Assembly (NCBI RefSeq): GCF_011045215.1
Contig: NZ_CP049201.1
DNA length: 64,000 bases
DNA from: Escherichia coli
GTDB taxonomy: Bacteria; Pseudomonadota; Gammaproteobacteria; Enterobacterales; Enterobacteriaceae
Reading direction: 5' to 3' (one strand)
The translations under genes and the position numbers were made by a program. Shown in pieces: positions 261 through 37,579 of this stretch (position 1 is its first letter; the number at the start of each line of letters is the position of its first letter). The notes beneath the pieces were generated by a model, which searched no databases, had not been told where the DNA came from, and saw only the letters and a program-made list of their open reading frames with translations.

Positions 261-1160
261 TCACTCCATCATCTTCTCAATCGGCAGGACCAGAATTGAA
301 CTGGCACCCAGCGCTTTCAGTTTTTCCATCGTTTCCCAGAACAGGGTTTCACTGCTGACCATGTGCATCGCTACGCGCTGTTGGTCACCCGCCAGCGGCA
401 GAATGGTTGGGCGTTCGGCACCTGGCAGCAGGGCGATGACTTCATCCAGACGTTCGGTCGGTGCGTGCATCATGATGTATTTTGATTCGCGCGCCTGAAT
501 CACACCCTGAATACGGGTCAGCAGTTTGTCGATCAGTTGCTGTTTGGATTCTTCCATTTCGCCATCGCGTTGTATCAGGCAGGCTTTCGAGCGATAGATA
601 ACTTCGACTTCGCGCAGGCCGTTAGCTTCCAGCGTGGCACCGGTGGAAACCAGATCGCAAATCGCATCCGCCAGTCCGGCACGCGGGGCGACTTCAACAG
701 AACCGTTCAGTAAGCAGGATTTAAAACAGATACCTTTCTGGTCGAGATAACGCTTGAGCAGGTGAGGATAAGAGGTGGCGATACGTTTACCGTTTAAGGA
801 GAGCGGGCCATCCCAGGCTTCATCAACCGGCGTTGCCAGTGAAAGTCGGCAGCCGCCGAAATCCAGACGACGCAGGGTAAAGTAGCGTGGATCTTCACCC
901 TGGGCGCGGCGGTTAAGCAGCTCTTCTTCCAGCACGTTTTCGCCGATAATCCCGAGGTCAACCACGCCGTCCATTACCAGACCGGGAATGTCGTCGTCAC
1001 GCACGCGCAGAATATCAATCGGCATGTTTTCTGCCATCGCGATCAGGCGCTGGGTGTGAAGATTGATTTTAATGCCACAGCGCGCCAGCAATTCGCGTGA
1101 GTCATCACTTAAACGGCCGGATTTCTGCATAGCTATGCGTAAACGAGTGTTGTCTGTCAT
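261..1160 (-). CDS. hisG: ATP phosphoribosyltransferase HisG (299 aa)
   Basis: Six-frame ORF 261..1199; internal ATG at 1160 gives [21 protein letters not shown]..., the canonical HisG N-terminus and length. Confidence 0.95.
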
Positions 1161-1205
1161 TTTCTTATTCCTCTTTAAACCTGTCTGAACCGTTATCAAC
1201 CGCGC

Positions 1206-1244
1206 AATAAAAAAGCCCCCGGAAGGTGATCTTCCGGGGGCTTT
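1206..1244 (-). terminator. his operon attenuator terminator hairpin
   Basis: GC-rich inverted repeat GCCCCCGGAAG/CTTCCGGGGGC followed by a U-run on the minus strand, between hisL and hisG. Confidence 0.85.
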
Positions 1245-1305
1245 CTCATGCGTTCATGCACCACTGGAAGATCTGAATGTCTTCCAGCACACATCGCCTG
1301 AAAGA

Positions 1306-1356
1306 CTAGTCAGGATGATGGTGATGATGGTGGTGTTTAAATTGAACGCGTGTCAT
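1306..1356 (-). CDS. hisL: his operon leader peptide (16 aa, seven consecutive His codons)
   Basis: Reverse complement reads ATGACACGCGTTCAATTTAAACACCACCATCATCACCATCATCCTGACTAG = MTRVQFKHHHHHHHPD*. Confidence 0.95.
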   Translation of the reverse strand: MTRVQFKHHHHHHHPD

Positions 1357-1580
1357 AAAAGTCTCTGTGAATGTTTATTCAACTGATGTCTTTTAACCTA
1401 AACCACTTTCACGTTAGAAAGCAAGGGCTTTTTTATATATTTTATTGCAATGGATTTGTTTAATGAATGAGCGGGGAAAGGAGGGGGCCTGGAGTGACTA
1501 CGTTAGAAAAGTAATCGTGAAAATATGTCTTTAAAACCCTCAAGAACATTGTGGTCTGTAACTAAAGTGGGCTTTGTTCC

Positions 1581-1679
1581 TGCCGGATGCGGCGTGAATG
1601 CCTTATCAGGTCTACAAATGTTGCCTAAATTCAATATATTGATGTTTTGTAGGACTGATAAGCGGAGCGCATCAGGCAA
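1581..1679. repeat. pair of inverted REP (repetitive extragenic palindrome) units
   Basis: GCCGGATGCGGCGTGAATGCCTTATCAGGTCTACA and inverted partner TGTAGGACTGATAAGCGGAGCGCATCAGGCAA; classic REP consensus. Confidence 0.7.
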
Positions 1680-1781
1680 TGGTATATTTGCTAACAGTTT
1701 CGATTTCATTCATAGAATGAATTGTCAGTTTTGATACGCTAGCGTAGCCTTATAGATCTAAGGTGTATCAGGAGATAACGG

Positions 1782-2606
1782 ATGAAAAAGGTCGCAATTG
1801 TCGGGTTAGGGTGGTTAGGCATGCCGCTGGCGATGTCACTTTCAGCGCGAGGCTGGCAAGTCACCGGGAGTAAAACCACACAAGATGGTGTCGAAGCGGC
1901 CCGAATGAGTGGCATTGATAGCTATCTGCTTCGCATGGAGCCTGAGCTAGTTTGCGATTCTGACGATCTGGATGCCCTGATGGATGCCGACGCGCTGGTC
2001 ATTACGCTTCCGGCACGTCGTAGCGGCCCCGGCGATGAGTTCTATTTACAAGCGGTACAAGAGTTAGTGGATAGCGCGCTGGCCCATCGTATTCCCCGCA
2101 TTATTTTCACCAGCTCAACATCTGTCTATGGCGACGCGCAAGGCACGGTGAAAGAAACCACCCCGCGTAATCCGGTGACCAACAGTGGACGAGTATTAGA
2201 AGAACTCGAAGACTGGCTGCACAATTTACCCGGTACTTCGGTCGATATTCTGCGTCTTGCGGGGCTGGTCGGACCGGGACGTCATCCCGGACGCTTCTTT
2301 GCCGGAAAAACCGCGCCTGATGGTGAACATGGTGTTAATTTAGTCCATTTAGAAGATGTTATTGGCGCTATCACTCTGTTGTTACAGGCACCTAAAGGCG
2401 GACACATCTATAATATATGTGCGCCAGCTCACCCTGCGCGTAATGTTTTCTATCCGCAGATGGCCCGTTTACTGGGGCTGGAGCCTCCGCAGTTCAGAAA
2501 TAGTCTGGACAGCGGCAAAGGTAAGATTATTGATGGCAGTCGGATTTGTAATGAACTGGGATTTGAATACCAGTATCCCGATCCGCTGGTAATGCCGCTG
2601 GAGTAA
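1782..2606 (+). CDS. yeeZ: NAD(P)-binding epimerase/dehydratase-family protein YeeZ (274 aa)
   Basis: ORF 1782..2606; N-terminal Rossmann motif VAIVGLGWLG; conserved position beside the his operon. Confidence 0.9.
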   Translation: MKKVAIVGLGWLGMPLAMSLSARGWQVTGSKTTQDGVEAARMSGIDSYLLRMEPELVCDSDDLDALMDADALVITLPARRSGPGDEFYLQAVQELVDSALAHRIPRIIFTSSTSVYGDAQGTVKETTPRNPVTNSGRVLEELEDWLHNLPGTSVDILRLAGLVGPGRHPGRFFAGKTAPDGEHGVNLVHLEDVIGAITLLLQAPKGGHIYNICAPAHPARNVFYPQMARLLGLEPPQFRNSLDSGKGKIIDGSRICNELGFEYQYPDPLVMPLE

Positions 2607-15887: not shown

Positions 15888-16094
15888 TTACAGCAACTGG
15901 TGAGGGCTGGCATAAGTTGCCGGTGTTTCGGTAGAGTCACGTTCATCCACCACGCGGAGTGAATCACCGTTTTCAGCGACCTTGTTAATCAGTTCAGTGA
16001 TATTAACACCATCAATATCAACGACAATTCGCCCCATATTCAGTGCCTGTACGTTAACGCTGTCGGCTTCCAGTGTCAGGGCCAGTTTCATCAT
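15888..16094 (-). CDS. YeeW-like small protein (68 aa), last gene of the toxin-antitoxin cluster
   Basis: ORF 15888..16094 directly after cbtA with a 4-nt overlap, as in CP4-type islands. Confidence 0.6.
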
Positions 16095-16465
16095 TTCGCC
16101 TCCGGATACTTACCCAGGGTGATATTGTTCACCGTTCTGTAGTTGTGGCGGGTCATCAGGCCTGTTGCCCGGCGAGCCCGGAGAATATCAATGCTGTTGA
16201 TTAACTGCGACGAGGCTCCTGCGCTGAATCCCGGCTGGTCAGTTCGTACCAGTGCGTATTTTTCCACGAGAAAGTTCACTGCATCACACAGTGAAATGCC
16301 TGCCTCAATATGCTGCTCAATCACGCGTTCATCCACGAACGGTGTGTCATTCAGCGTAAGGCTGTAATGCTGGTCCAGTAACCGGGTGAGCAGTGTCTGC
16401 CAGATGGTGACGGGAGACGGGCAGCACGATACCTCCCGTACATGCGTGTCGGGTAATGTTTTCAT
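16091..16465 (-). CDS. cbtA: CbtA/YeeV-family toxin (cytoskeleton-binding; 124 aa)
   Basis: ORF 16091..16465, [43 protein letters not shown]...[17 protein letters not shown]; near full-length match to recalled CbtA. Confidence 0.88.
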
Positions 16466-16554: not shown

Positions 16555-16923
16555 TTACTTTTTCGTTTCAGGTGTCGGATAAACAGCCAGATAAACGTAA
16601 CCACAGGAGCCGAGGGTGTCGGCTTCACAGGTCAGCCCCTTCGCATACAGTGTCACGGTATGCTGATGGCGGGGATTCAGTTCACCACTGGTGAGCATTA
16701 ATTTCAGTTGTTTCATCAGCAGCGGAAAGGCCTGGTCCAGAGGGTACGCATCCGCATCTCTGAACCGGCCTCTGATACCGGCACGGTCGGCAAGGTAATG
16801 CAACCGGTTACCCTCCTGCACCAGACGGGCGCCGAAACAGGGCGTCACTGTGCAGGGTAGTCCCCACCAGGGATGGTCGTTATTGTCATCGGGATGCGTT
16901 GTCCCGGAAAGTGTGTCTGACAC
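16555..16923 (-). CDS. cbeA: CbeA/YeeU-family antitoxin (122 aa, GTG start)
   Basis: ORF 16555..17031; GTG at 16923 gives (M)[48 protein letters not shown]...; immediately upstream of cbtA. Confidence 0.85.
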
Positions 16924-17369: not shown

Positions 17370-17846
17370 TTAAAGCAGACCATGTTCGGCAAAGGAGAAA
17401 ACCTGGCTGCCACCGACTATCAGATGGTCCGGCACCCGGATATCCACCAGGCCCAGTGCCTGTACCAGACGTTCCGTGATAAGGCGGTCTGCCTTGCTGG
17501 GTGTGACTTCACCGGACGGGTGATTGTGTGCCAGCACCACGGCAGCGGCATTGTGATACAGGGCGCGTTTAATCACTTCACGGGGATGGACTTCCGTGCG
17601 GTTGATGGTGCCGGTGAAGAGGGTTTCACCGGCAATCAGCTGATTCTGGTTGTTCAGATACAGCACCCGGAACTCTTCACGCTCCAGTCCCGCCATGTTC
17701 AGAATCAGCCATTCTCGTGCCGCACGGGTGGAGGTGAAGGCCACGCCGGGTTCATGAAGATGGCGGTCCAGGGTTTTCAGGGCCCGTTGAATGAGGCTGC
17801 GCTCGCCGGGCGTCATCTCTCCGGGCAGAAAGGAAAGCTGTTGCAT
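17370..17846 (-). CDS. RadC-like JAB/MPN-domain protein (YeeS/YfjY family, 158 aa)
   Basis: ORF 17370..17861; ATG at 17846 follows GAGAGAAG; JAMM motif HNHPSG. Confidence 0.85.
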   Translation of the reverse strand: MQQLSFLPGEMTPGERSLIQRALKTLDRHLHEPGVAFTSTRAAREWLILNMAGLEREEFRVLYLNNQNQLIAGETLFTGTINRTEVHPREVIKRALYHNAAAVVLAHNHPSGEVTPSKADRLITERLVQALGLVDIRVPDHLIVGGSQVFSFAEHGLL

Positions 17847-18335: not shown

Positions 18336-18938
18336 GTATGAAATCCTTGTAATGTGAATAAATGAGAGGGAGTAAAGGTCGGGAGCTGGCAACATCACGT
18401 TCATCACTGACCGTGATGACCCGGTAATATCAGGGATGAATGATATTCGGCTGAAATTCCGGACAGCCGTACGCGTAACCGTTCCGGTCACAGACGGATG
18501 GCCAGATGCCATTGCCTGTATACTCAGTCTGCACAGACTGATTTCTCCGGGACGGTAAATCAGACGGGTACACCAGGCGCACAGGTCATCATCAGAAATG
18601 GAACGACACCCCGGCAGCGCCTCCGGGGCGTCGGGTGATTCTGGTGCCTGAATCACGCCTTCAGGGACATGCTGCATCAGCGCAGGCTCTCCAGCAGCGT
18701 TTCTGCCTGCAAAATGGCATCTGAATCGATCGCAGTTTGGCATTCGAATCGATCATGATTTGGCATCCATCTCCGATCACAGTTTGGCATCACAATCGAT
18801 CACGATTTGGCATACTTCCGATCATTGATTGGAATTCGCCAGTCACTCCGGGAATTAACTCTTTTCACCACAGTCTCCATTGCCGTGTTTAAACCAGTGG
18901 AGACGTCAATGTCCAAAAAGAGAAAATCCAGGAGCACT

Positions 18939-20474
18939 ATGGAAACTTGTTTTAAGATCCTTCAGCTCAAGTTCGATAAGAAGCTGACTAACCGTTGTAT
19001 CGGACTGACGTTACACATCAGCGCCTCAACCGTTTTTGAGGTTCTTGCCCGCTTCAAAGCCTCTTCTCTGTCATGGCCATTACCTGCTGATATATCCCAT
19101 GACACGCTGGAGAAACTCATTTTCCCGCCCAAAGACACCTCTGCGTCAGAGCTTGTTATGCCTGACATGCTGTACTTCGATACGGAAATGAGAAAACCTG
19201 GCGTGACGCGCCAACTGTTGTGGATGGAATACAAGGCACAGGCGGGTGACAAAGCGATGGGATACTCACACTTCTGCCGTTGCTACCGGAAGTGGAAAAA
19301 AACGCGACGCCTCTCCATGCGACAGGAGCATCGTGCTGGCGAAAAGCTCTTTATCGACTTCTGTGGTCCTACGGTCCCTGTTATTAATCCGGACACCGGA
19401 GAGATACGCCGCGTGGCAATCTTCGTGGCTGTAATGGGGGCGTCCAACTATACCTATGTTGAAGCGTGCGAAGGTCAGGACATGATGTCATGGTTAAATG
19501 CCCACAGCCGTTGCCTGACCTTCCTGGGCGGCGTACCGAAGCTGCTCATCCCCGATAACCTCAGAAGCGCAGTGAAAAAAGCCGATCGCTATGAGCCTGT
19601 CATCAACGACAGTTATCAGGCGCTGGCTGAGCACTATGGCACGGTTATTATCCCGGCCCGCCCGCGCAAACCTAAAGATAAACCAAAAGCAGAAAACGGC
19701 GTCCTCATCGTCGAGCGATGGCTTCTTGCCCGCATCCGTAATGAAACCTTCCACACGCTCAGGGCGCTGAATGCACGCCTTCGGGAGTTGCTGACGGACA
19801 TGAATAACCGACCAATGAAGGGATACGGTAATCAAACCCGCGCAGAACGCTTCCGCATGCTGGATGCACCAGCACTCTCTCCGCTGCCTCTGGAGCCTTA
19901 TGAATACACGGAATACAAAGCCGTGAAGGTTGGCCCTGACTACCACGTTGAATATGCCCGTCACTGGTACTCCGTTCCACACGAACTGGTCGGTCAGCGT
20001 CTGTCACTGAAGGTGGGGCAGTCGGTGGTACAGCTCTGGCACAAGGGGCAGTGTGTGGCGCAACATCCGCGCAGCACACATGAATATAAACACACAACCA
20101 ATCCGCTTCACATGCCAGAACGCCACCGGCGGCATGGGACATGGACACCGGAACGCCTTATCGAGCAGGGAAACCGTACAGGTCCGTCCACAGGCCGGGT
20201 GGTTGAATCCATGCTGAAAGCCAAACCCCATCCGGAGCTGGCTTACCGTGCAGTCCTGGGTCTGCTGGCACTTCAGAAAAAATACGGCCCGGAACGGCTG
20301 GAAAAGGCCTGTTACGTTGCCCTGCACTATAACGCCCCGGACAGACGCTTTATCGACAATCTGCTGCGTCATCATCGGGATAACGTTGAGCTTCCGTTAT
20401 CCCGCCAGGGCGAACAACATCCGGCATATGCTTCAGAGCATGAAAACCTGCGTGGTCCTGGCTACTACCACTGA
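18939..20474 (+). CDS. istA: IS21-family transposase IstA (about 512 aa; alternative ATG at 18909)
   Basis: ORF 18807..20474; ATG at 18939 preceded by GGAG; helix-turn-helix N-terminus and DDE core (FIDFCGP...VMGASNYTYVEA...). Confidence 0.85.
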   Translation: METCFKILQLKFDKKLTNRCIGLTLHISASTVFEVLARFKASSLSWPLPADISHDTLEKLIFPPKDTSASELVMPDMLYFDTEMRKPGVTRQLLWMEYKAQAGDKAMGYSHFCRCYRKWKKTRRLSMRQEHRAGEKLFIDFCGPTVPVINPDTGEIRRVAIFVAVMGASNYTYVEACEGQDMMSWLNAHSRCLTFLGGVPKLLIPDNLRSAVKKADRYEPVINDSYQALAEHYGTVIIPARPRKPKDKPKAENGVLIVERWLLARIRNETFHTLRALNARLRELLTDMNNRPMKGYGNQTRAERFRMLDAPALSPLPLEPYEYTEYKAVKVGPDYHVEYARHWYSVPHELVGQRLSLKVGQSVVQLWHKGQCVAQHPRSTHEYKHTTNPLHMPERHRRHGTWTPERLIEQGNRTGPSTGRVVESMLKAKPHPELAYRAVLGLLALQKKYGPERLEKACYVALHYNAPDRRFIDNLLRHHRDNVELPLSRQGEQHPAYASEHENLRGPGYYH

Positions 20475-20490
20475 CAGAAGGAACAACCGT

Positions 20491-21246
20491 ATGAGTGATA
20501 ATCTGTTAAACAAACTGACCCAACTGAAACTCCCGGCGATGGCCGGGAGCCTGATACGGCAACGGGAAACGCCTCAGACTTACGACGAACTGTCGTTCGA
20601 GGAAAGGCTGACACTGCTGGTTGATGACGAGCTTCTGAGCAGAGAAAACAGTCGTGTGGCACGGTTGAGAAAAAATGCCTGCCTGAAATATCAGGCAACA
20701 CCGGAAGGGCTGCGTTATCCGGCCTCAAGAGGTCTGCGGGCTGAACAGATGAGGGAACTGCTGAACGGCCACTACATAATCCACAGGAAAAACCTACTGA
20801 TAACCGGTCCGACAGGATGCGGTAAGAGCTGGATAGCCAATGCGCTGGGCGAACAGGCATGTCGACAGAAATACAGCGTCCGGTACTGTAGAACCGGGCG
20901 ATTACTGGAACAGTTGGCTCAGGGACGTGTTGATGGCAGTTGGCTGAAATATCTGAAACAGTTGCAAAAAATACAGGTTCTAATCCTGGACGATCTGGGG
21001 CTGGAACAGTTAAGTAACGCCCAGTGTAATGACCTTCTGGAGATCACAGAGGATCGTTACGGACAAAGCAGCACGATAGTGGTAAGCCAGTTCCCGGTAG
21101 ATAAATGGCATGGTCTGATGGAGAACCCAACAACAGCAGATGCCATCCTGGACAGACTGGTACATAACTCACACAGAGTGGTCCTTCAGGGAGAGTCCCT
21201 GAGGAAAAATCCCCCGACAGTGGAAAGCAGCGAAAAAACGAGTTAA
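20491..21246 (+). CDS. istB: IS21-family helper ATPase IstB (251 aa)
   Basis: ATG at 20491 (MSDNLLNKLTQLKLPAMAG...); Walker A ITGPTGCGKSWIA and Walker B LILDDLG. Confidence 0.9.
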   Translation: MSDNLLNKLTQLKLPAMAGSLIRQRETPQTYDELSFEERLTLLVDDELLSRENSRVARLRKNACLKYQATPEGLRYPASRGLRAEQMRELLNGHYIIHRKNLLITGPTGCGKSWIANALGEQACRQKYSVRYCRTGRLLEQLAQGRVDGSWLKYLKQLQKIQVLILDDLGLEQLSNAQCNDLLEITEDRYGQSSTIVVSQFPVDKWHGLMENPTTADAILDRLVHNSHRVVLQGESLRKNPPTVESSEKTS

Positions 21247-21348
21247 AAAGCGGTAGAAAAAGTTAAGTTCCCGGTTGATCGAATGGATGCGAATCGCTGA
21301 TCGAACTTCGATGCCAATCCGTGATCGAATAGAGCGGAATACGCATTC

Positions 21349-22523: not shown

Positions 22524-22595
22524 TCAGAAAGTCACATTCAGCGTGGCCTGACCGTTATAACCTTCAGCGCTGCTGCCGCTGACGCTGTGGGCATA
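22524..22595 (-). pseudogene. flu: 3'-terminal remnant (last 23 codons) of antigen 43 autotransporter gene flu/agn43
   Basis: Minus strand encodes [23 protein letters not shown], an autotransporter C-terminal beta-strand ending in Phe; no ~3 kb ORF upstream. Confidence 0.65.
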
Positions 22596-22758
22596 CCGGC
22601 AGGTACAAAACAGCATGGTCAGATAAAGTGGTTTTTCCCGGACATAAATGCTTCCCCTCTCTCATCCGCCAGAGAAGTATCAGTCCGTTGTGTGCAATTC
22701 CGTTCTGCATGATGAAGAGATTCAGCTGCCTTTTCGCAGACCATTAACCACTATAAAC

Positions 22759-37033: not shown

Positions 37034-37579
37034 ATGATGATTTTGGTGACGGGGGGCGCACGGAGCGGGAAGAGTCGCCACGCAGAGGCGCTTATTGGGG
37101 ACTCTTCACAGGTTCTGTATATCGCCACCTCGCAAATCCTTGATGACGAGATGGCTGCACGGATAGAACATCATCGGCAAGGCCGTCCGGCGCACTGGCG
37201 CACGGTGGAGCGTTGGCAACATCTTGATGAATTAATTCATGCAGACATTAACCCGCATGAAGCTGTGTTGCTGGAATGCGTTACCACAATGGTGACTAAT
37301 CTGTTGTTTGATTATGGCGGCGATAAAGACCCTGATGAATGGGATTATCAGGCGATGGAACAGGCGATTAATGCTGAGATTCAGTCGTTGATTGCTGCCT
37401 GCCAACGCTGCCCCGCAAAGGTTGTATTAGTGACTAACGAAGTGGGAATGGGGATTGTGCCGGAGAGTCGTCTGGCACGACATTTTCGTGATATTGCCGG
37501 GCGGGTAAATCAGCAGCTGGCCGCTGCGGCAAATGAAGTATGGCTGGTGGTTTCGGGTATTGGAGTAAAAATCAAATGA
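37034..37579 (+). CDS. cobU: adenosylcobinamide kinase / adenosylcobinamide-phosphate guanylyltransferase CobU (181 aa)
   Basis: ORF 37034..37579; P-loop [10 protein letters not shown]. Confidence 0.93.

What the first reader, a model, noticed from the sequence alone, without database searches (positions are those of the whole stretch)
1357..1781. No yefM-yoeB toxin-antitoxin module between hisL and yeeZ; a REP pair occupies the gap
In K-12 the yefM-yoeB pair lies between hisL and yeeZ as I recall. Here the 425-bp interval has no ORF resembling either protein and instead holds two inverted REP units, so this strain carries the empty-site allele.
Basis: partly seen in the sequence, partly recalled or inferred. 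Interest (0 to 1): 0.3.

Follow-up and report, generated by a model that had tools for sequence, protein, structure and literature searches.

The report
Toxin-antitoxin-free hisL–yeeZ spacer with REPs
This E. coli strain lacks the yefM-yoeB toxin-antitoxin genes that K-12 carries between hisL and yeeZ and instead has the older, gene-free spacer with a pair of REP repeats; about a fifth of E. coli genomes share this variant and it has already been published.

Summary
Window 1357-1781 is the exact 425-bp spacer between hisL (1306-1356, minus strand) and yeeZ (1782-2606, plus strand). It holds no YefM- or YoeB-like reading frame. It does hold two REP units in inverted orientation (1582-1615 and 1649-1677) around a 33-nt linker with an IHF-like site, which is a BIME-1-type element.

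Against K-12 this is a replacement, not a simple insertion or deletion. Window 1489-1704 (216 bp, including the REP pair) stands where K-12 has 658 bp (150 bp upstream, then yefM and yoeB). Each allele has sequence the other lacks.

Of 5,426 complete E. coli genomes, about 1,195 (22%) carry the REP allele, including BL21(DE3), O157:H7 and an ST69 strain. 4,212 (78%) carry yefM-yoeB.

E. albertii and two other non-coli Escherichia species have the same roughly 425-bp REP-bearing spacer. Salmonella, Citrobacter, Enterobacter and most other genera sampled have a spacer of about 160-180 bp with neither feature. The window therefore carries the state ancestral to the genus, and the toxin-antitoxin module, which has homologs on plasmids, is the derived state.

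Iguchi et al. 2011 (PMC3158064) already reported that O157:H7 Sakai lacks yoeB/yefM here and that REPs sit in this spacer. The finding is ordinary and already known.

The parts
1207..1330 (-). His operon leader / attenuator (Rfam RF00514)
   Evidence: 131.6 bits against a gathering score of 49, E 1.7e-23, full-length model match
1306..1356 (-). hisL leader peptide gene (MTRVQFKHHHHHHHPD)
   Evidence: Sequence read directly. The first 12,233 bases of the window are gap-free colinear and 99.9% identical with strain ECCHD184, where PGAP annotates hisL at the same coordinates
1357..1488 (.). Left part of the spacer, shared by both alleles. It contains the hisL 5'UTR and, by inference from textbook knowledge of the his promoter, its -10 (about 1395-1400) and -35 (about 1419-1424) on the minus strand
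   Evidence: Window 1161-1488 is 99.4% identical to K-12. About 1359-1434 is conserved down to Salmonella and Citrobacter. Promoter positions are inferred, not tested
1489..1704 (.). Allele-specific 216-bp segment, absent from K-12, where 658 bp carrying yefM-yoeB take its place
   Evidence: Breakpoints from blastn against K-12. Present at 80% coverage or more in 1,196 of 5,426 E. coli genomes. Present in E. albertii and two other Escherichia species at 88-96% identity
1582..1615 (+). Y-type REP unit (GCCGGATGCGGCGTGAATGCCTTATCAGGTCTAC). Its GTAG end, read on the minus strand, faces the linker
   Evidence: 3 mismatches to the consensus, none expected by chance. Aligns with other copies of the element elsewhere in E. 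coli
1616..1648 (.). 33-nt linker with an IHF-like site (ATTCAATATATTG at 1629-1641 on the + strand, CATCAATATATTG at 1632-1644 on the - strand; each 12 of 13 to WATCAANNNNTTR)
   Evidence: The linker motif AATTCAATATATTG is shared with the other copies. IHF binding was not tested
1649..1677 (-). Z1-type REP unit (minus strand: GCCTGATGCGCTCCGCTTATCAGTCCTAC), inverted relative to the first
   Evidence: 2 mismatches to the consensus, none expected by chance. Inverted-repeat arms. Alignment
1705..1781 (.). Right part of the spacer, shared by both alleles. It begins with the palindrome TTCATTCATAGAATGAA and contains the yeeZ ribosome-binding region. A promoter-like match (CTAACA-16-TAGAAT, 1691-1718) straddles the junction
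   Evidence: Window 1705-1981 is 100% identical to K-12. The promoter-like site is only a consensus match
1782..2606 (+). yeeZ (SDR-family oxidoreductase)
   Evidence: 274-aa ORF. Annotated as yeeZ in the matching genomes

Best explanation
The interval is the non-coding region between the divergently transcribed hisL and yeeZ genes, in its ancestral Escherichia form. The left third is the hisL 5'UTR and promoter. The middle is sequence specific to the genus Escherichia and ends in a BIME-1-type element: a Y REP, a linker with an IHF-like site, and an inverted Z1 REP. The right end is the yeeZ upstream region.

Nothing here encodes a toxin or an antitoxin. In the lineage leading to most E. coli, a 658-bp cassette (promoter/operator, yefM, yoeB) related to plasmid-borne yefM-yoeB modules replaced the 216 bp that include the BIME. 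Both alleles now segregate in the species, roughly 78% to 22%. They are probably shuffled by homologous recombination, because the locus lies next to the his/O-antigen recombination hotspot.

Shown: absence of the module, presence and family of the REP pair, the exact breakpoints, the allele frequencies, and the outgroup state.

Inferred: the direction of change, the plasmid origin of the cassette, and any function of the BIME (IHF binding, or acting as a structural or insulating element between the two promoters).
For: - No YefM or YoeB similarity in the window, and no TGTACA operator in the spacer.
- Breakpoints: window 1488/1489 and 1704/1705 correspond to K-12 locus L001 928/929 and 1586/1587.
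- Frequencies: 1,192 genomes match the spacer region (window 1161-1981) end to end, and 1,196 carry the 216-bp segment, including BL21-Gold(DE3), O157:H7 strains and an O15:H18 ST69 strain. 4,212 carry the K-12 cassette, always on chromosomes. The 30 occupied loci listed span the same roughly 1,260 bp, which implies the same junctions.
- Outgroups: E. albertii NBRC 107761, Escherichia sp. E1V33, Escherichia sp. MOD1-EC7003 and a divergent 'E. coli E69' all have a 424-426-bp spacer colinear with the window, REP pair included. The 216-bp segment is 88-97% identical and yeeZ 92-95% identical, which is species-level divergence rather than recent transfer. Of the roughly 45 loci from other genera that reach yeeZ, nearly all have a spacer of about 160-180 bp with no REP. 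None encodes YefM or YoeB.
- The REP pair belongs to a multi-copy family: 82-87% matches elsewhere in E. coli chromosomes (738 genomes have their best match in the 80-90% identity band), for example in the convergent cmoB-torZ and mnmH-ybbP spacers.
- Plasmid yefM-yoeB modules in Salmonella, Citrobacter and E. marmotae are 82-86% identical in DNA to positions 87-654 of the K-12-specific segment.
- Literature: O157:H7 Sakai lacks yoeB/yefM between yeeZ and hisL, and REPs are present in the yeeZ-hisL spacer (PMC3158064).
Against: - 'Derived within E. coli' therefore rests on three non-coli species plus one divergent genome.
- The cassette varies by up to about 4.6% among E. coli. It is therefore old, and more than one import through the same flanks cannot be excluded.
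- The REP stems are degraded (two stem mismatches in the Y unit). The predicted fold of 1570-1690 is only marginally more stable than shuffles (z = -1.95), so a current structural function of the BIME is doubtful.
- No mechanism for the replacement is visible: no target duplication and no recombinase site.
Confidence: 0.9

Rival explanations
1. Secondary reversion. This strain's own lineage once carried yefM-yoeB and lost it when homologous recombination, for example together with an O-antigen or his-region exchange, brought in the ancestral REP allele from another E. coli. The allele is still the ancestral type, but the strain's history includes loss of the module.
For: Both alleles occur within closely related backgrounds: K-12 and BL21, both laboratory strains that I recall belong to phylogroup A. 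The flanks of the window are 99.4-100% identical to K-12 although the centre differs. The his/rfb neighbourhood is documented as a region of horizontal exchange with REPs near the junction points (PMC3158064).
Against: Nothing in the window distinguishes retention from re-acquisition. No phylogenetic mapping was done.
Confidence: 0.3
2. De novo event. The module was deleted in this lineage and a REP/BIME was later inserted into the scar by a REP-associated transposase (RAYT) or by another route, so the REP pair is younger than the module.
For: REPs are mobile on evolutionary time scales. The spacer is a recurrent insertion spot: an ERIC-like insert in Kosakonia and a different insert in Mangrovibacter.
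Against: The same 216 bp with the same junctions occur in E. albertii and two other Escherichia species at species-level divergence. The segment includes about 115 bp of non-REP sequence that is also absent from K-12. There are no remnants of the module.
Confidence: 0.04
3. The spacer hides a small gene, either the 69-aa ORF 1525-1734 (+) or the 68-aa ORF 1503-1709 (-), or a small RNA that ends at the REP pair.
For: Two ORFs of 68-69 aa exist. Segment 1501-1578 weakly resembles the hisL start and promoter at 1351-1434, so a degenerate promoter copy could point towards... nothing annotated.
Against: Both ORFs run straight through the REP units and have no Pfam hit. The ATG at 1525 is ACG in E. 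albertii. The only Rfam match reaching its family threshold in 1100-1900 is the His leader. PGAP annotates nothing here in the two matching genomes inspected.
Confidence: 0.03

Closest known systems
yeeZ-hisL spacer of E. coli O157:H7 Sakai as described by Iguchi et al. 2011 (PMC3158064); the same allele occurs in BL21(DE3)
   Same: No yoeB/yefM between yeeZ and hisL, and REP sequences in the spacer. O157:H7 genomes match the window's 216-bp segment at 97.2% over 99% of its length, and BL21-Gold(DE3) at 97.7%.
   Different: Only a few point differences and a 3-nt difference at the left junction. The present analysis adds allele frequencies, exact breakpoints and the outgroup polarity.
BIME-1 / RIP (RIB) elements of E. 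coli: Y REP, L linker with an IHF site, Z1 REP. This classification is recalled from Gilson, Bachellier, Hofnung, Oppenheim and Boccard, not read here.
   Same: Two REPs of the Y and Z1 types in inverted orientation, with their GTAG ends facing a linker that carries AATTCAATATATTG. The unit aligns with other copies of the element at cmoB-torZ and mnmH-ybbP.
   Different: It lies between divergent promoters rather than at the 3' ends of convergent or co-directional genes. The linker is 3 nt shorter. Both REPs carry stem-breaking substitutions. IHF binding is untested.
K-12 yefM-yoeB type II toxin-antitoxin locus
   Same: Same chromosomal position and the same flanks (99.4-100% identity outside the variable segment).
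   Different: The window has none of the 658 bp: no operator, no yefM, no yoeB.

Membership tests
REP / BIME (bacterial interspersed mosaic element, BIME-1 type) | Imperfect palindrome of about 35 nt matching the E. coli REP consensus | tested here: met
   Y consensus with 3 mismatches at 1582-1615. Z1 consensus with 2 mismatches at 1649-1677. None expected in 100 shuffles. The consensus strings were recalled from memory; independent support comes from alignment to other genomic copies.
REP / BIME (bacterial interspersed mosaic element, BIME-1 type) | Conserved terminal GTAG tetranucleotide on each unit | tested here: met
   CTAC at 1612-1615 (GTAG on the minus strand) and GTAG at 1649-1652.
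REP / BIME (bacterial interspersed mosaic element, BIME-1 type) | Two units in inverted orientation separated by a short linker | tested here: met
   Inverted arms 1602-1618/1646-1662 (88%) and 1581-1591/1668-1678 (91%). 33-nt linker.
REP / BIME (bacterial interspersed mosaic element, BIME-1 type) | Many extragenic copies per genome | tested here: met
   Positions 89-192 of the 216-bp segment match other chromosomal sites at 82-87% in hundreds of genomes. Two such sites that were inspected are intergenic. One further Y-type REP lies in the window at 61609-61642.
REP / BIME (bacterial interspersed mosaic element, BIME-1 type) | L-type linker that binds IHF | tested here: inconclusive
   12 of 13 match to WATCAANNNNTTR on each strand and a shared linker motif. 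Binding cannot be tested with these tools.
REP / BIME (bacterial interspersed mosaic element, BIME-1 type) | Stable stem-loop as a single strand | tested here: inconclusive
   Minimum free energy -36.3 kcal/mol for 1570-1690, z = -1.95, with 11 of 200 shuffles folding as well. The stems carry mismatches.
YefM-YoeB type II toxin-antitoxin module | Antitoxin ORF of the Phd/YefM family (PF02604) | tested here: not met
   None of the nine reading frames scanned matches. The K-12 YefM control scores 6.1e-28. tblastn best E is 0.94 in the window.
YefM-YoeB type II toxin-antitoxin module | Toxin ORF of the YoeB/Txe family immediately downstream | tested here: not met
   tblastn best E is 0.72 in the window and 0.18 (11 residues) in the spacer. 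No Pfam hit.
YefM-YoeB type II toxin-antitoxin module | Operator palindromes with a TGTACA core upstream of yefM (recalled from Kedzierska et al. 2007) | tested here: not met
   TGTACA is absent from 1357-1781 and present twice in the K-12 cassette.

The most novel reading that the evidence does not exclude
The hisL-yeeZ spacer may be a recurrent landing pad for small mobile DNA across Enterobacteriaceae: a BIME in the Escherichia ancestor, an ERIC-like element in Kosakonia, another insert in Mangrovibacter, and a plasmid-type yefM-yoeB cassette in E. coli. On this reading the BIME itself (its single-stranded hairpins, or IHF or gyrase binding) was the substrate that captured the toxin-antitoxin cassette. 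That would make REP/BIME elements docking sites through which chromosomes acquire toxin-antitoxin modules.
Probability: 0.08. Interest if true: 0.35.

Novelty: already known. Interest (0 to 1): 0.08.

Why it matters
It matters little beyond bookkeeping.
- It confirms that yefM-yoeB is an accessory module rather than a core one in E. coli. It is absent from about 22% of complete genomes, including the widely used BL21(DE3) and O157:H7.
- It shows that the allele without the module is the ancestral state of the genus.
- Strain comparisons of persistence or stress phenotypes that invoke YoeB need to take this into account.
- The exact breakpoints (window 1488/1489 and 1704/1705) give a simple PCR or in-silico typing marker next to the O-antigen/his recombination hotspot.

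Tried and rejected
1. HH97 (NZ_CP116409) as a 'third, intermediate' allele. Its 649-bp spacer interleaves K-12-like and REP-allele-like stretches at a scale of a few bases and splits the Y REP around yefM-like sequence. I read this as a consensus artefact from mixed reads, not an evolutionary intermediate.

2. MEI4BO-21 as an E. coli outgroup. Its 5.2-kb his-plaP region is 98.9% identical to Kluyvera genomosp. 3 and 95.4% to K. georgiana. It serves as a Kluyvera-type short spacer, not as an Escherichia lineage.

3. An apparent 92.5% hisG identity between the window and K-12. This was an alignment effect of a length difference in the ER2796 hisG, which is annotated at 864 bp against 900 bp. Outside it there are 11 mismatches in 434 bp. 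I draw no conclusion from it.

4. A degenerate duplication of the hisL start and promoter (1351-1434 against 1501-1578). It is only borderline: 2 to 44 of 1000 shuffles reach the score depending on the scoring scheme, and 156 of 2000 under strict scoring. It is recorded as a side note, not used.

5. The Rfam E-value scan of 1100-1900 found only the His leader above threshold. The weak ES036 and naRNA4 hits (21 and 19 bits, far below gathering) overlap the REP-pair element.

6. The terminator scan found none. The three promoter-like hits are not more than the 1.4 ± 1.2 expected from shuffles.

Full report
**What is at the coordinates.** The window begins inside hisD. It runs through hisG (261-1160, minus strand), the His leader (Rfam RF00514, 1207-1330, 131.6 bits) and hisL (1306-1356, minus strand). 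After a gap come yeeZ (1782-2606, plus strand), yeeY and plaP. The finding's interval 1357-1781 is therefore exactly the 425-bp hisL-yeeZ spacer.

**Is the toxin-antitoxin module absent?** K-12 (ER2796) does have yefM and yoeB between hisL and yeeZ.
- I translated those two genes and searched the window with tblastn at a permissive threshold. The best hits were E 0.94 for YefM and E 0.72 for YoeB across the 64 kb. Within 1301-1800 the best was an 11-residue match at E 0.18, which is noise.
- There are 13 stop-to-stop reading frames of at least 20 aa in 1341-1800. Nine of them, including the longest, were scanned against Pfam at E up to 10. None hit the Phd/YefM or YoeB families. The K-12 YefM control scored 6.1e-28.
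- The yefM operator core TGTACA, which occurs twice in the K-12 cassette, does not occur in the spacer.

**Is the REP pair real?**
- 1582-1615 matches the Y-type REP consensus with 3 mismatches. 1649-1677 (minus strand) matches the Z1-type consensus with 2. No match appeared in any of 100 dinucleotide-preserving shuffles of the window. Both consensus strings were recalled from memory.
- The repeat finder independently reports the inverted arms 1602-1618/1646-1662 and 1581-1591/1668-1678.
- The central 100 bp of the segment matches other chromosomal sites at 82-87% in hundreds of E. coli genomes. Two of these, in the convergent cmoB-torZ and mnmH-ybbP spacers, align with the window unit column by column. 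The alignment includes the linker motif AATTCAATATATTG.
- The linker has a 12-of-13 match to the IHF consensus on each strand.

This is the architecture recalled as BIME-1/RIP: Y REP, IHF linker, Z1 REP. The copy is somewhat decayed. It has stem mismatches and a linker 3 nt shorter, and its predicted fold is only marginally better than shuffles (z = -1.95).

**Relation to K-12.** blastn gives two colinear blocks. Window 1161-1488 corresponds to K-12 locus positions 601-928 (99.4%), and window 1705-1981 to positions 1587-1863 (100%). Between them the window has 216 bp (1489-1704). K-12 has 658 bp: 150 bp upstream that begins with a perfect hairpin and contains the operator, then yefM, yoeB and 5 bp more.

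Neither allele contains the other. I saw no target-site duplication and no REP remnant in K-12. So 'empty site' is right in spirit, since the module is absent, but the event was a replacement.

When other Escherichia alleles are compared, the left breakpoint can be moved about 7 nt to the right, because they share CTAAGAG with K-12.

**Frequency.** Among 5,426 complete E. coli genomes:
- 1,192 match window 1161-1981 end to end, and 1,196 carry the 216-bp segment. These include BL21-Gold(DE3), many O157:H7 strains and an O15:H18 ST69 strain.
- 4,212 carry the K-12 cassette, always chromosomal. The occupied loci that were listed all span the same roughly 1,260 bp.
- About 18 genomes fit neither pattern. 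The two I inspected are a probable mislabelled Kluyvera (MEI4BO-21) and a probable mixed-read consensus (HH97).

**Which allele is ancestral?** One scan of GTDB species representatives with a 26-nt hisL pattern returned 54 loci. For each I measured the distance from hisL to the yeeZ homolog and searched for YefM and YoeB.
- No locus encodes the module.
- E. albertii, Escherichia sp. E1V33, Escherichia sp. MOD1-EC7003 and a divergent 'E. coli E69' have spacers of 424-426 bp. These align with the window over the full length, including both REPs. The 216-bp segment is 88-97% identical and yeeZ 92-95% identical. That level fits vertical descent rather than recent transfer.
- Salmonella diarizonae, Citrobacter, Enterobacter, Kluyvera, Leclercia, Lelliottia and Trabulsiella have spacers of about 160-180 bp that lack both the REP pair and the surrounding roughly 250 bp.

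The likely order is a short spacer first, then a roughly 250-bp gain including the BIME in the Escherichia ancestor, then replacement of 216 bp by yefM-yoeB within E. coli.

Plasmid-borne yefM-yoeB modules from Salmonella, Citrobacter and E. marmotae are 82-86% identical in DNA to positions 87-654 of the K-12-specific segment. This fits a mobile origin for the cassette. The first three 'plasmid' hits in that search are records of 0.39-4.8 Mb and so are probably chromosomal sequence filed as plasmids.

**Function.** Nothing in the spacer is likely to be coding.
- The 68- and 69-aa ORFs run through the REPs and have no family hit.
- The ATG of the 69-aa ORF is ACG in E. albertii.

The left third (1357 to about 1434) is conserved to Salmonella. 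From textbook knowledge of the his promoter it holds the hisL 5'UTR and promoter; this is an inference. What the BIME does here is not shown. IHF binding, or a role as a topological or insulating element between two divergent promoters, is the conventional guess. Its decay argues against strong constraint.

A promoter-like match (1691-1718) straddles the right junction. The two alleles may therefore differ in how yeeZ is transcribed. This was not tested.

**Literature.**
- Iguchi et al. [quoted passage not shown] They report REP sequences in the yeeZ-hisL spacer and note that indels in the O-antigen flanks often involve REPs.
- The review PMC7167474 notes that no toxin-antitoxin system is conserved across MG1655, W, EDL933 and UTI89.
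- Norton and Mulvey 2012 (PMC3464220) show a bladder-colonisation phenotype for yefM-yoeB in CFT073. That is the main reason presence or absence could matter.

**Verdict.** The polymorphism is common and already published, so interest is low.

Noticed in passing
L004 (NZ_CP116409.1, E. coli HH97) 2325-2973: The hisL-yeeZ spacer of this RefSeq 'complete genome' is 649 bp long. It interleaves yefM-yoeB-like and REP-allele-like sequence every few bases, and the Y REP is split around degraded yefM sequence. It looks like a consensus built from reads of two strains with different alleles, which would be an assembly artefact in a public record.
   Followed up: partly
L003 (NZ_CM149565.1, 'E. coli' MEI4BO-21), whole 5.2-kb locus: The his-yeeZ-plaP region is 98.9% identical to Kluyvera genomosp. 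3 YDC799 and 95.4% to K. georgiana, but only 73-86% to the window. It also lacks yeeY. Either the genome is a mislabelled Kluyvera or it carries a large import from Kluyvera.
   Followed up: partly
window 1351-1434 vs 1501-1578: The left part of the allele-specific segment aligns weakly with the hisL start plus promoter region (shared blocks GT.A.AAAAGT, ATGTCTTT.AA, GGGCTTT.TT). Between 2 and 44 of 1000 shuffles reach the score, depending on the scoring scheme. It may be an old, decayed tandem duplication that helped build the Escherichia-specific spacer.
   Followed up: partly
L036 (Kosakonia oryziphila) and L016 (Mangrovibacter yixingensis), hisL-yeeZ spacers: Kosakonia has an insert of about 280 bp at the same point of the spacer, containing an ERIC-like core (…CCCCGGGAGCTTACATAAGTCCGTGACTGGGGTGAGCG…, recognised from memory). 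Mangrovibacter has a different extra 150 bp or so. The spot between the his promoter T-run and TATGAATTGTCAG seems to collect small inserts repeatedly.
   Followed up: no
window 12234-37000: A CP4-44-like island follows tmaR (yeeX). It holds IS100, IS110 and ISEc12 copies, a CbtA-family toxin (16094-16465, minus strand), a YeeU-family antitoxin (16561-16923, minus strand) and YeeS (17373-17846, minus strand). The window therefore does hold a toxin-antitoxin pair of another type. Compared with strain 2018-11-3CC, the Ag43 autotransporter gene is almost entirely missing (only its last 29 codons match, near 22527-22613), and about 2.6 kb at 18707-21346 is different. cobU starts at 37034.
   Followed up: partly
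L061 (NZ_CP033250.1, ECCHD184) 12.2-50 kb: ECCHD184, the genome identical to the window across the spacer, is colinear with the window for only the first 12.2 kb. After an IS2 it continues into cspH-cspG-torS-rut-put genes. From memory these lie about 1 Mb away in K-12, which implies an IS-mediated rearrangement in that strain but not in the window.
   Followed up: no
L001 929-1014 (K-12): The first 86 bp of the K-12-specific cassette begin with the perfect hairpin TAAGAGGACTGTCCTCTTA. They have no counterpart in the plasmid yefM-yoeB homologs, which align only from position 87. Their origin is unknown.
   Followed up: no
window 61609-61642: Another Y-type REP copy (3 mismatches to the consensus, minus strand) lies near the far end of the window.
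   Followed up: no
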